This document shows, one piece after another, positions 6,001 to 9,000 of a stretch of 24,832 nt of DNA; the first letter of the stretch is position 1; every line of letters starts with the position of its first letter. Made by a program: the position numbers. The stretch comes from a virus (Duplodnaviria; Heunggongvirae; Uroviricota; Caudoviricetes), in IMG/VR virus record IMGVR_UViG_2724679239_000003; one strand, given 5' to 3'.

Positions 6001-9000
6001 AATCTGGTGAAGTTTTTCCTCTGTCATTACGTCATGGTCGATTTCAATTTCTATTGATGCTTTCCAGTCGTAATCAATGATGTATTTTTTGATATTTGAC
6101 ATCTATTCATACCCTCACAGATAAAAAATCGCCCTCACATTAGAGGGCAAAGAAGATTTCCAATAATCAGAACAAGTCGGCTCCTGTTTAGTTACGAGCG
6201 ACATTGCTCCGTGTATTCACTCGTTGGAATGAATACACAGTGCAGTGTTTATTCTGTTGTTTATGCCAAAAATAAAGGCCGACTATGCGGCCTAAAATTA
6301 CTTAACCAATGATGCTGCATATTCGATAAGGTAAAGCTTTGGGGCCAGCCAAATTTTTAACCAAGTCATATTGATTGCTACAGCAATAATAAAATTTACC
6401 CACAGAACAAAAACTGCAGCTAATGGTAAGATTAGAAAACTAATCTCACCGTTACTTTCCCAAATCATAGTCGGTTTGTATTTAGTCTTCCCCTTATCCC
6501 ATGACCATCCTTCATCATCGAACTTACCAATTTCAACTTTTTGGTACTGTTTCTTCATAAACCAGAAAACCAGCGGGATTGTTAAAATGGCTATTAATGT
6601 TTTAATCAGACTGTCAACCATATTCCATAGCAGCAACTGATGAACAACATCAGGAATCTGTGCCTAGATAAATGAGACAGCCGTGTCTATTCCATTACTG
6701 GCTTTTTGCAATAGTTCTATGAGAATCTTATTTGCCTGTTCTTCCATATATCACCTCAAATAAGTGGTTTGCTGCCTAATTTCATTTTCTGGCGACCAAT
6801 ACAAGTCACACCCATTTCACTGCGTGGCTTGCTGTAATAAATTCGGTTAGTTCAGACAATAAAAAAACCATCGAAGTGGGCTATGACCATTTTTTATTTG
6901 GATTTCGTTGGTGAGCGTGGTTAACAACTCTGTGCATTACATCCTCATATTTTTCATCTTCAATTTTTTCAACATCGCGAGGAAATGGTGTTGCTAATGC
7001 TTTGTCAACTTTGTCCATTGGGTCTTCATTAATCTTATATTCAGGACCGTCATCTATAGCATTAAATCCAGGTGTTACACCGTTTTTTAATGCATATGCT
7101 ATCCTCTTTTCCCATCTCGCTATTCTCCTCCTGTCTCGAGATGTAAGGCCTCTATCAGATACTTTTCTGTTTTGTCCGCGGTCAGGATTAACATAAATAG
7201 TCTTTTTCACCATAAGCATACTCAATAAGCACCGTACGGTGGTTTACTGTACAATTTTATTTTTTGGACTGCATGTATTTTGTTTCCTAATGGGTTTGAA
7301 TCCTTGTAATAAATACTTCTATTTTTTCGAACGAATTCTTCTTTCTTCTTGTAGCAAAGGCTTCCCAGTGATGCTGCTTTGTCTGCTCTGACGCAACCAG
7401 AGAGCTTTAGCGCAATTTTTCGCGCCAGTGCTTCATTACTTCGTCGCTCGGCAATAAGTTCTGCTCTGCGAGCTTTGTAGCGGCTTTTTGCTGTACCTTT
7501 GGATTCTTTCCAGACTATGGTTACCATGATGGTCTCCTTTAAGTGGCTTTGGCGCATGACGCGTCGAGGTGCTTATCTTCTCGATCGCTGTCTTGCAGCT
7601 GCAATTCGCGCCATCCCCAAAACCACTCAAGTTCTGGTCTCAACGGTTAGGTTGAGAGTTCGTCGATGTTAAAGAGCCTGCCAATCTGTTCCGTTTGGCT
7701 TCCAGCGTCCTGCTGATGGCTTAAATTTAAGACTTCTTAATTTGTAGGTCAACTGTATTTTTGAAGAAAACTTAATTTTATGGGCGTGAATTTAGTTTGT
7801 CTTTGATTTTTAACGGGAAATAAAAAAGGGGCGAAAGCCCCTTAAGGAAGGTTTGCTAGCTTGGCATCAACGACAACGCCAATGATTTTACAGTTCCCAT
7901 TGATTTCAATCATTGGGTATTGTGGATTGAGTGGTTTCAGGAATTTTCTACCGGCATCAATAACTAACTTTTTGAATGTCGCCTCGTTTTCTCCTTCAAG
8001 TTTGGCGACTACCAGCTTTCCATTACGTGGTTCGACTTCTGGGTCGACGAGAATAATCATCCCCTCAGGAATACTCAGTCCTGCCGGGGCAGTCATTGAG
8101 TCGCCTTTAACGTCGAGCCAAAAAGAGTCTTCAGAACAATCTACCGTTGTGTCGTACCAGTTATCTATTGCACGCCTATGATATGGCTCTACAGCTTCCA
8201 TCCAACATCCTGCGCTTACCCAACTAATTAGAGGATACGAACCTCTTGGAGCATGCCTGCTGTGATAGGCAATGTTTGAAAGACTATCCTCTCCTTTCAA
8301 CAGGTAATCAGGGGAGCACTGCAAAGCCTTGGCTAAGGCCAATAGGTTTTCGCCATTGGGCTCAGTTTCAGATCGCTCCCATTGGGAAATAGCAACATTA
8401 GACACGCCAACCATCTTGCCAAGGGCAGCCTGCCTAATCTTGAGTTCTTTTCTGCGAGCGCGAATACGCTCACCCATCAGTTGTGTATTCATAGTTAAGA
8501 CATCTTAAATAAACTTGACTTAAGATTCCTTTAGCAGATAATTTAAGTGCCCTTTAATTTCGGAGCGAGTCTATGTACAAAAAAGATGTTATTGACCACT
8601 TCGGAACCCAGCGTGCTGTTGCTAAAGCACTAGGCATTAGCGATGCAGCAGTCTCTCAGTGGAAAGAAGTTATCCCAGAGAAAGACGCCTATCGATTGGA
8701 AATCGTTACAGCTGGCGCCCTGAAGTATCAAGAAAGTGCTTACCGCCAAGCGGCATAAGTAAATTGCTCTTTAACAGTTCTGGCCTTTCACCTCTAACCG
8801 GGTGAGCAAACATCAGCGGCAAATCCACTGGGTATGCCGCTATAACTCCATATCAATATAGGAAAATTAACAAATGGCACAAGCAAGTTACAGCAAGCCA
8901 ACACAGCGAGAAATTGATCGCGCAGAAACAGATTTACTCATCAACCTGTCAACGCTTACACAGCGAGGTCTGGCAAAGATGATTGGCTGTCATGAATCGA

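What the first reader, a model, noticed from the sequence alone, without database searches (positions are those of the whole stretch)
6100..7230. Two unknown genes downstream of N in the ral/sieB position, including a small membrane protein with its own terminator and a microORF
Between N and ea10 lambda carries ral and sieB; here there is instead (a) a 114-aa arginine-rich protein translationally coupled to N (ATGA overlap at 7222-7225), (b) a 27-codon microORF with a GAGGTG ribosome-binding site (minus strand, about 6664..6747, MEEQANKILIELLQKASNGIDTAVSFI), and (c) a low-GC 112-aa protein with two transmembrane helices followed immediately by a terminator. Small membrane proteins at this position in lambdoid phages are typically superinfection-exclusion or abortive-infection factors. 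A 9-bp perfect inverted repeat GTGTATTCA...TGAATACAC (about 6221-6248) lies between the two terminators.
Basis: partly seen in the sequence, partly recalled or inferred. Interest (0 to 1): 0.55.

Follow-up and report, generated by a model that had tools for sequence, protein, structure and literature searches.

The report
Nun gene plus broken membrane gene
The two "unknown genes" after N are the well-known HK022 Nun protein, which shuts down transcription of invading lambda phages, and one catalogued but unstudied 149-codon phage membrane gene that a premature stop codon splits into the "microORF" and the "112-aa protein"; the region is ordinary.

Summary
The ORFs, two transmembrane segments, two terminators and inverted repeat are real, but the reading changes.

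- **The 114-aa arginine-rich ORF is Nun.** It matches the HK022 transcription-arrest and lambda-exclusion factor at 108 of 109 residues (PDB 6ALG). The exact protein occurs on at least 1000 E. coli contigs.
- **The "microORF" and the "112-aa protein" are one gene.** They share one reading frame and form a 149-codon gene (6298..6747, minus strand). A single C-to-T change made codon 28 TAG. All relatives have Gln there and annotate one 450-bp gene. The GAGGTG site is that gene's ribosome-binding site.
- **The gene's family is catalogued but uncharacterised.** It is phrog_3054, a large family of small two-helix membrane proteins. It sits in the PL operon of lambdoid and P22-like phages and in early regions of N4-like and rV5-like virulent phages. 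Pfam, NCBIfam, PADLOC and fold searches gave nothing.
- **The copy here is most likely inactive.** Sister prophages carry either an intact allele or an independent frameshift.
- **nun travels as a cassette.** It comes with its own N 3' end, and a 31-codon remnant of the phage-21-type N 3' end lies downstream of it.

Superinfection exclusion is right for this locus, but through Nun, not the membrane gene. Novelty is low.

The parts
7724..7752 (-). PL-like promoter (TTGACC-17-TAAATT) that drives the leftward early operon
   Evidence: Promoter scan. It lies just downstream of the P22-c2-like repressor gene 7842..8492.
7638..7657 (-). nutL boxB hairpin of the phage-21 type (UCUCAAC-CUAACC-GUUGAGA)
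   Evidence: Single exact match against 0 expected; folds as a 7-bp stem. No lambda-type boxB (GCCCTGAARAAGGGC) anywhere in the window, even with 2 mismatches.
7222..7527 (-). N antiterminator, 101 aa. Residues 1-57 are identical to phage 21 N. The C-terminus is a variant shared with mEp235.
   Evidence: BLASTP against lambda imm21 N: 78% identity, with the first 57 residues identical. phrog_271 at 2e-30.
6875..7339 (-). nun cassette shared with HK022: the last ~38 codons of a variant N gene plus nun
   Evidence: blastn 96.3% identity to HK022 over 465 bp. HK022 keeps the same N 3' end as a non-coding remnant upstream of nun.
6881..7219 (-). nun, the HK022-type transcription-arrest and lambda-exclusion factor. 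It is 112 aa from ATG 7219 or 109 aa from GTG 7210.
   Evidence: 108/109 residues identical to HK022 Nun. PDB 6alg_N at 3.8e-71; 1hji_B ARM peptide 26/26 identical. phrog_5632 at 1.8e-68. The exact 112-aa sequence occurs on >=1000 contigs.
6756..6851 (-). Non-coding remnant of the 3' end of a phage-21-type N gene (TNRIYYSKPRSEMGVTCIGRQKMKLGSKPLI, then stop)
   Evidence: Translation. blastn 96% to the lambda imm21 N 3' end, window 6848..6739 against L007 1781-1890.
6752..6757 (-). GAGGTG ribosome-binding site of the 149-codon membrane gene; it overlaps the stop codon of the N remnant
   Evidence: Sequence. AGGTGA is conserved in all five aligned sequences; Gally and the E. coli OZ197100 prophage read AAGGTG instead of GAGGTG.
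6298..6747 (-). 149-codon phrog_3054 membrane-protein gene interrupted by an amber codon.
   Evidence: Same frame. Relatives annotate a 450-bp gene. Alignments. phrog_3054 at 2.8e-64 for an intact relative and 8e-34 for the 112-aa tail.
6664..6666 (-). TAG at codon 28, where relatives have CAG or CAA (Gln)
   Evidence: The intact allele P0042 differs only at Q28 and T128I. The same TAG is present in three other assemblies.
6556..6612 (-). Transmembrane helix 1 (residues 46-64 of the 149-aa frame)
   Evidence: Hydropathy. AlphaFold2 helix 20-68.
6379..6435 (-). Transmembrane helix 2 (residues 105-123)
   Evidence: Hydropathy. AlphaFold2 helix 106-125.
6276..6293 (-). Intrinsic terminator immediately after the membrane gene (AGGCCG-CATAGT-CGGCCT, then TTATTTTT)
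   Evidence: Conserved in the relative L006.
6201..6248 (.). It is conserved lambda DNA between the ral slot and ea10.
   Evidence: dG -24.9, z -6.2. Conserved in lambda imm21. It is the insertion site of IS903 in HK022.
6129..6150 (-). Intrinsic terminator upstream of ea10 (TTGCCCTC-TAATGT-GAGGGCGA, then TTTTTTAT)
   Evidence: dG -14.2, z -4.0.
5734..6102 (-). ea10 (DUF2528), the next gene of the operon
   Evidence: Pfam PF10800 at 3.7e-47.

Best explanation
This is the start of the leftward (PL) early operon of a mosaic lambdoid prophage, probably from Escherichia albertii or E. coli. Its order is PL, phage-21-type nutL, N, nun, a leftover N 3' end, a nonsense-disrupted phrog_3054 membrane gene, a terminator, a conserved hairpin, a terminator, then ea10.

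**Nun is the functional accessory gene.** By near-identity with HK022 Nun, its N-terminal arginine-rich helix binds lambda-type boxB RNA on the transcripts of a superinfecting lambda-N phage. Its C-terminal 23 residues wedge into RNA polymerase and arrest it, which excludes such phages. The resident phage escapes because its own N and nutL boxB are of the phage-21 type.

**nun arrived by recombination.** It travels as a cassette carrying its own N 3' end, which replaced the resident one and left the old 3' end as a remnant.

**The microORF and 112-aa ORF are one gene.** It is a 149-codon gene that once sat directly behind N, as in phage HF4s. A CAG-to-TAG change at codon 28 inactivated it.

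**What the intact protein most likely does (inferred, not shown).**
- It is a small inner-membrane protein made from the N-antiterminated early transcript during lytic growth.
- Both of its conserved end segments are predicted to face the periplasm.
- I think it most likely acts on the envelope, for example by blocking entry of secondary phage DNA as T4 Imm does. I put that specific role at about 25-30%.
For: **Nun**
- 108/109 residues identical to HK022 Nun.
- Full-length match to PDB 6alg_N, and 26/26 identical to the boxB-binding peptide of 1hji.
- The mechanism is described in PMC5386594.

**Escape of the resident phage**
- The first 57 residues of N are identical to phage 21 N.
- A phage-21-type boxB lies at 7638-7657.
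- No lambda-type boxB occurs in the window.

**Cassette and remnant**
- blastn map against lambda imm21, HK022 and HF4s, with translations.

**One broken gene**
- Same frame, spanning 450 nt.
- Gln codon at position 28 in all four aligned relatives. Those four and two further E. coli prophages annotate a 450-bp gene.
- 96 of the 120 listed homologues are exactly 149 aa.
- Q28 is more than 90% conserved in the family.
- The intact allele P0042 sits in the same prophage architecture.
- The same TAG occurs in three independent assemblies, so it is not a sequencing error.

**Early-operon gene, not a lysogen-expressed moron**
- No promoter-like site precedes it, here or in the E. coli prophage OZ197100 checked.
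- That relative has a terminator immediately upstream of the gene as well as one downstream.
- Homologues lie in early regions of N4-like and rV5-like virulent phages.

**Topology**
- K/R residues near the helices are on the loop side in 118 of 131 family members and never on the other side.
- The conserved motifs lie at the two ends.
Against: - No experiment exists for the membrane family. Its envelope or exclusion role rests only on size, topology, timing and stand-alone context.
- Translation could restart at in-frame TTG 6636 or ATG 6621, giving a 107-112-aa product that keeps both helices. No Shine-Dalgarno sequence precedes either start, and the product would lack the conserved N-terminal motif.
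- An amber-suppressor host would read through the TAG.
- Nun activity, and its expression from this prophage in the lysogenic state, were not tested. The simple promoter scan found no consensus promoter in the 115 bp upstream of nun. HK022 is reported to have promoters for nun (King et al. 2000, title cited in PMC6814406; the paper was not readable here).
Confidence: 0.85

Rival explanations
1. The disrupted gene is still functional. After the amber at codon 28, translation restarts at in-frame ATG 6621 (M43) or TTG 6636. This gives a 107-112-aa two-helix protein that keeps membrane activity. Loss of the N-terminal domain would then be selected rather than accidental.
For: Two independent lesions in sister prophages both fall in the first 28 of 149 codons and leave the downstream 107-codon frame untouched and 100% conserved. 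They are the amber at codon 28 and a 1-bp deletion at codons 14-15. By chance this is roughly (28/149)^2, about 0.035. Gene callers call the 107-aa ORF.
Against: No Shine-Dalgarno sequence precedes M43 or L38. The lost segment carries one of the two family-wide conserved motifs, F26/P32/V34/Q37-L39/W41. Other alleles show lesions elsewhere, such as frameshifts in helix 2 and truncations. The sister prophages also carry an N nonsense mutation and fused cIII-kil calls, which indicates general prophage decay.
Confidence: 0.08
2. One reading: the 27-codon ORF is a genuine regulatory microORF or leader peptide, and the 112-aa protein is a separate superinfection-exclusion or abortive-infection gene.
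For: The 27-codon ORF has a good ribosome-binding site and an ATG. The 112-aa tail keeps both helices and its terminator.
Against: The two ORFs are in frame, and every relative has a sense codon (Gln) at the stop position and one 450-bp gene. The nearly identical allele P0042 is intact. The 112-aa start is a TTG without a ribosome-binding site. There is no match to any defence family.
Confidence: 0.02
3. The intact phrog_3054 protein is not an exclusion factor. It would be a lytic-cycle helper, for example a modulator of lysis timing, cell division or a host membrane protease or transporter.
For: It is expressed only from the antiterminated early operon, with no promoter of its own. It lies in early regions of virulent phages. 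It sits next to kil and cIII, which act on host envelope or division proteins. It decays often in prophages, as expected for a function that is useless in the lysogenic state.
Against: It is never seen next to holin or endolysin genes in the contexts examined. In Vibrio phage 120E34-1 it is an opposite-strand insert in the head-tail module, a typical accessory (moron-like) position. There is no homology to any known helper.
Confidence: 0.3

Closest known systems
HK022 Nun transcription termination/arrest factor (PDB 6ALG, 1HJI; phrog_5632)
   Same: 108 of 109 residues are identical, including the whole boxB-binding arginine-rich motif and the C-terminal arrest segment 87-109 with H93, R94, N97, H98, H100, R102, K106, K107 and W108. 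The upstream 115 bp is also shared with HK022 at 96% identity.
   Different: There is one substitution, R11 for S11. Here nun follows an intact phage-21-type N gene. HK022 has only an N 3' remnant and uses put RNA instead of N. The same N-nun arrangement is already in the databases: mEp235, mEpX1, Kapi1, PA28 and Stx1a phages.
phrog_3054, named 'phage transmembrane protein' in UniRef; for example HF4s_0037, Gally gp30, Oslo gp47, CUS-3 ECRS218_0047, WP_000392424.1
   Same: Same gene in the same slot, after N or ral and before ea10 or cIII. The window copy is 79-99% identical to intact 149-aa relatives.
   Different: The window copy has TAG at codon 28, so only 27 codons are translated from the native start. 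The family has no known function.
Lambda / lambda imm21 N-ral-ea10 segment
   Same: The flanks are collinear. The 5' part of N and the region from just after ral to ea10 are 95-97% identical.
   Different: ral is replaced by the membrane gene, and the nun cassette is inserted in the N 3' end.
Small phage inner-membrane exclusion proteins (T4 Imm, HK97 gp15, P22 SieA); comparison from general knowledge and PMC10883804, PMC3594210
   Same: Small size, membrane location, stand-alone gene, variable accessory positions, and presence in both temperate and virulent phages.
   Different: No sequence or fold similarity was detected. No promoter for prophage expression was found, and no experimental evidence exists.

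Membership tests
HK022 Nun | N-terminal arginine-rich motif (about residues 19-44) that binds lambda boxB RNA | tested here: met
   26/26 residues identical to the peptide in the Nun-boxB structure 1hji_B.
HK022 Nun | C-terminal segment 87-109 with the arrest determinants H93, R94, N97, H98, H100, R102, K106, K107 and W108 (listed in PMC5386594) | tested here: met
   Residues 12-109 are identical to 6alg_N.
HK022 Nun | Excludes lambda-N/nut phages but not the resident phage | not testable with these tools
   Consistent with the sequence: the phage's own boxB is the phage-21 type and there is no lambda boxB in the window. Plating tests are needed.
HK022 Nun | Constitutive expression from the repressed prophage through promoters just upstream of nun (King et al. 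2000; title cited in PMC6814406, details from memory) | tested here: inconclusive
   The upstream 115 bp is about 96% identical to HK022, but the consensus scan found no promoter-like site there. The paper was not readable.
phrog_3054 membrane-protein family | Full-length profile match and about 149 aa with two transmembrane helices | tested here: met
   phrog_3054 at 8e-34 for the window's 112-aa tail and 2.8e-64 for an intact relative. Two helices in 131 of 144 members.
phrog_3054 membrane-protein family | Uninterrupted reading frame | tested here: not met
   TAG at codon 28 (6664-6666), where relatives have CAG or CAA.
Phage-21-type N antitermination module | N arginine-rich motif and cognate nutL boxB of phage 21 | tested here: met
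   N residues 1-57 are identical to lambda imm21 N. boxB lies at 7638-7657.
Regulatory microORF / leader peptide | A short ORF conserved as a separate unit upstream of the regulated gene | tested here: not met
   It is in frame with the downstream gene. The stop is absent from all relatives, including the near-identical allele P0042.
Moron (independently transcribed accessory unit expressed from the prophage) | Own promoter and own terminator | tested here: not met
   A terminator is present (6293..6276). No promoter-like site lies upstream, here or in L006. This was a consensus scan only.
Known superinfection-exclusion, abortive-infection or defence proteins | Sequence or fold similarity to a described family | tested here: not met
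   No PADLOC, Pfam or NCBIfam match. Foldseek against PDB and BFVD gave nothing at E<=0.001. A profile search of PDB sequences gave nothing below E=0.2.

The most novel reading that the evidence does not exclude
phrog_3054 could be an unrecognised, very widespread class of phage inner-membrane proteins. The family has at least 2500 clusters at 50% identity and occurs in lambdoid, P22-like, N4-like, rV5-like and Vibrio phages. Its conserved N- and C-terminal juxtamembrane segments would face the periplasm and block DNA entry by secondary phages, or otherwise remodel the envelope, during lytic growth. The recurrent null alleles in prophages would then reflect cost or disuse in the lysogenic state. 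The copy in this window would be a natural knockout, not a working example.
Probability: 0.25. Interest if true: 0.5.

Novelty: already known. Interest (0 to 1): 0.2.

Why it matters
**For annotation**
- This region should be labelled N, nun and a pseudogene of a phage transmembrane-protein family. It should not be labelled as two novel genes plus a microORF.
- NCBI names the exact Nun sequence only "transcriptional regulator" or "hypothetical protein", although it occurs on at least 1000 E. coli contigs. A well-characterised lambda-exclusion factor is therefore widely under-annotated in prophages that also carry N.

**What remains open**
- The only real unknown is the function of the phrog_3054 family. 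It is large, is present in both temperate and virulent phages, and has never been studied.
- Natural intact, amber and frameshift alleles in near-identical prophages give ready-made isogenic material to test it.

Tried and rejected
- **Family searches for the membrane protein.** Pfam, NCBIfam and PADLOC gave no hits, either for the single protein or for 120 diverse members.
- **Structure.** The AlphaFold2 model had mean pLDDT 69.6 and showed a helical hairpin with a small beta loop. Foldseek against PDB and BFVD found nothing at E<=0.001. AFDB50 was not available. A profile search of PDB sequences gave only chance GPCR helices.
- **Literature.** A search for phrog_3054 returned nothing. Searches on exclusion genes in the lambdoid ral region found nothing on this family. 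King et al. 2000, on the nun promoters, is not held.
- **RNA.** Rfam had no family for the 6201-6248 hairpin or any other element in 5600-8000 except the lambda cIII thermoregulator.
- **Source organism.** Two exact-pattern scans of GTDB representative genomes for the allele found nothing. The organism is inferred from the names attached to the closest allele, E. albertii.
- **Holin idea rejected.** The gene is never next to lysis genes in the contexts examined.
- **Conserved partner gene rejected.** The neighbours differ in every phage type examined.
- **Sequencing error rejected.** The same TAG is present in three other assemblies.
- **Self-targeting by Nun rejected.** The window has no lambda-type boxB.
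Full report
**Setting**

The window is a mosaic lambdoid prophage. On the minus strand the finding lies at the start of the PL operon. The order is:
- a P22-c2-like repressor gene (7842..8492)
- a PL-like promoter (7752..7724)
- N (7222..7527)
- the region in question
- ea10, cIII, kil, gam, bet and exo

A megablast search shows the segment is built from modules present in hundreds of phage and E. 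coli prophage records. No single phage record covers 80% of it.

**The 114-aa arginine-rich ORF is Nun**

- A tblastn search against HK022 gives 108 of 109 identical residues.
- A search of PDB sequences gives a full-length match to chain N of 6ALG, "Transcription termination factor nun", at E 3.8e-71. It also gives 26/26 identity to the boxB-binding peptide of 1HJI.
- PHROGs places it in phrog_5632, "Nun-like transcription termination factor".
- The same gene in the same place is annotated as Nun in mEp235 and mEpX1.
- The exact 112-aa sequence is on at least 1000 contigs, usually named only "transcriptional regulator".

The mechanism comes from PMC5386594. The arginine-rich motif binds the lambda nut boxB RNA. 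The C-terminal 23 residues insert into the elongation complex and block translocation, which excludes lambda.

All residues named there as arrest determinants are unchanged in this copy.

The N stop TGA is at 7224-7222, and the TTG is only the ORF finder's first possible start. Real candidate starts are ATG 7219, ATG 7213 and GTG 7210.

**N and Nun can coexist here**

The window's N is identical to phage 21 N over residues 1-57, which include its RNA-binding motif. The nutL boxB at 7638-7657 is the phage-21 hairpin. No lambda-type boxB exists in the window, even allowing two mismatches.

Nun should therefore not act on the resident phage. That phage-21 nut sites are insensitive to Nun is my recollection of Robert et al. 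1987, not something tested here.

**How nun got there**

A blastn map gives these matches:
- Window 7700..7305 equals the lambda imm21 PL-nutL-N 5' part.
- Window 7339..6875 equals HK022 at 96% identity. This stretch is the last ~38 codons of a variant N 3' end plus nun.
- Window 6848..6739 again equals lambda imm21, from N codon ~70 to just past the N stop.

Translation shows a 31-codon leftover at 6851..6756, TNRIYYSKPRSEMGVTCIGRQKMKLGSKPLI followed by a stop. HK022 itself retains the variant N 3' end as a non-coding remnant in front of nun.

So nun moves as an [N 3' end + nun] cassette. Here it replaced the end of a phage-21-type N and left the old end behind.

**The microORF and the 112-aa protein are one gene**

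- The distance 6747-6298+1 is 450 nt, so the two ORFs share a frame and are separated only by TAG at 6664-6666.
- Phages HF4s, Gally and Oslo and E. coli prophages annotate a single 450-bp gene at the homologous place.
- In the DNA alignment the window's TAG aligns with CAG or CAA. In the protein alignment it aligns with an otherwise conserved Gln.
- Of 120 listed homologues, 96 are exactly 149 aa.
- The closest allele is P0042, named E. albertii, which is intact. It differs from the window only at Q28 and T128I and sits in the same repressor-N-nun-gene-ea10 architecture.
- The amber allele is identical in three other assemblies. Two of them are 100% identical to the window over 1651 bp, so it is real and inherited.
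- A sister set of prophages (CP034166.1 and two read assemblies) has the Gln codon. It has instead lost one A from the A5 run at codons 14-15, an independent frameshift.
- GAGGTG at 6757..6752 is the gene's ribosome-binding site. AGGTGA is conserved in all five aligned sequences. It overlaps the stop of the N remnant, as expected if the gene once followed N directly, as it does in HF4s.

**What the membrane gene family is**

- It is phrog_3054, with unknown function. It has no Pfam, NCBIfam or PADLOC family.
- An exhaustive profile search finds 2508 clusters at E<=1e-3 and 1145 at E<=1e-10. The 150 best hits listed are 70-184 aa, mostly 115-185 aa.
- A tblastn search finds it in 177 phage records. 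These include P22-like and lambdoid phages, N4-like Schitoviridae, 145-kb rV5-like coliphages and many Vibrio phages.
- In temperate phages it follows N or ral.
- In virulent phages it lies among early genes.
- In Vibrio phage 120E34-1 it is an opposite-strand insert between tail-completion and head-closure genes.
- No neighbour is conserved across these contexts.
- Conservation is concentrated in an N-terminal segment before helix 1 (F26, P32, V34, Q37-L39, W41). It is also concentrated in the C-terminal segment after helix 2 (I132, A135-K137, L140, E142-Y143, L147). The loop between the helices varies in length and sequence.
- K/R residues within 12 residues of the helices lie on the loop side in 118 of 131 two-helix members and never the reverse. 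The ~46-residue N-tail is acidic.
- By the positive-inside rule the loop is cytoplasmic and both conserved ends are periplasmic. This is an inference.
- AlphaFold2 gives a helical hairpin with mean pLDDT 69.6. It has no significant structural neighbour in PDB or BFVD.

**Expression**

No sigma-70-like site precedes the gene, here or in the relative L006. In L006 an intrinsic terminator lies immediately upstream and another downstream. The gene therefore looks like an N-dependent delayed-early gene rather than a prophage-expressed moron.

Lesions elsewhere in the gene are common among other prophage alleles. The sister prophages also carry an N nonsense mutation. This fits decay of a function that is not used in the lysogenic state.

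**Terminators and the inverted repeat**

- Hairpins with U-tracts at 6293..6276 and 6150..6129 are confirmed.
- The 9-bp arms are at 6211-6219 and 6230-6238. They form the core of a 14-bp-stem hairpin with dG -24.9 and z -6.2.
- This hairpin lies in DNA conserved with lambda imm21, between the ral slot and ea10.
- HK022's IS903 is inserted exactly here. The two HK022 matches overlap by 9 bp, window 6224-6232, consistent with a target-site duplication.
- It has no Rfam family, and I did not determine its role.

**Verdict**

- One "unknown gene" is a textbook exclusion factor.
- The microORF is an artefact of a nonsense mutation.
- The membrane gene is a catalogued, uncharacterised and here inactivated family member.

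Interest is low for this window. The phrog_3054 family is a modest but genuine open question.

Noticed in passing
window 6201-6248: A strong conserved hairpin (14-bp stem, dG -24.9 kcal/mol, z -6.2) with no U-tract lies between the ral slot and ea10. HK022's IS903 is inserted exactly in it; the flanking matches overlap by 9 bp, window 6224-6232, consistent with a target duplication. It has no Rfam family and its role is unknown.
   Followed up: partly
window 6756-6851; L008 (HK022) about 6056-6184: A 31-codon remnant of a phage-21-type N 3' end lies downstream of nun. HK022, which has no N gene, keeps about 38 codons of the other N 3' end variant just upstream of nun. nun therefore seems to move as an [N 3' end + nun] cassette.
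   Followed up: yes
L016, L018, L019 (e.g. CP034166.1 711411-717734), gene at 2875-3324: Sister prophages carry an independent 1-bp deletion in the A5 run at codons 14-15 of the same membrane gene. L016 and L018 also have an N gene called at only 35 aa. Both known null lesions of this allele fall in the first 28 codons.
   Followed up: partly
L022 (Vibrio phage 120E34-1) 3501-3905: A phrog_3054 homologue sits on the opposite strand between tail-completion and head-closure genes. This is a moron-like position, quite unlike its early-operon place in lambdoid phages.
   Followed up: no
window 6881-7219: The exact Nun sequence occurs on at least 1000 public contigs, but NCBI labels it only 'transcriptional regulator' or 'hypothetical protein'. 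NCBIfam has no model for it.
   Followed up: partly
window 5616-5674 (-): The lambda cIII thermoregulator RNA element (RF01804, 88.5 bits) is present upstream of cIII. The cIII ORF here ends after 46 residues (...PGVPKNG).
   Followed up: no
L001 2357-2980 (mEp235), L002 2297-2980 (Kapi1): In the closest N-nun phages the slot after nun holds a different gene, a 207-227-aa Nmad5-family putative nucleotide-modification protein. The position after nun is therefore itself a swap point for accessory genes.
   Followed up: no
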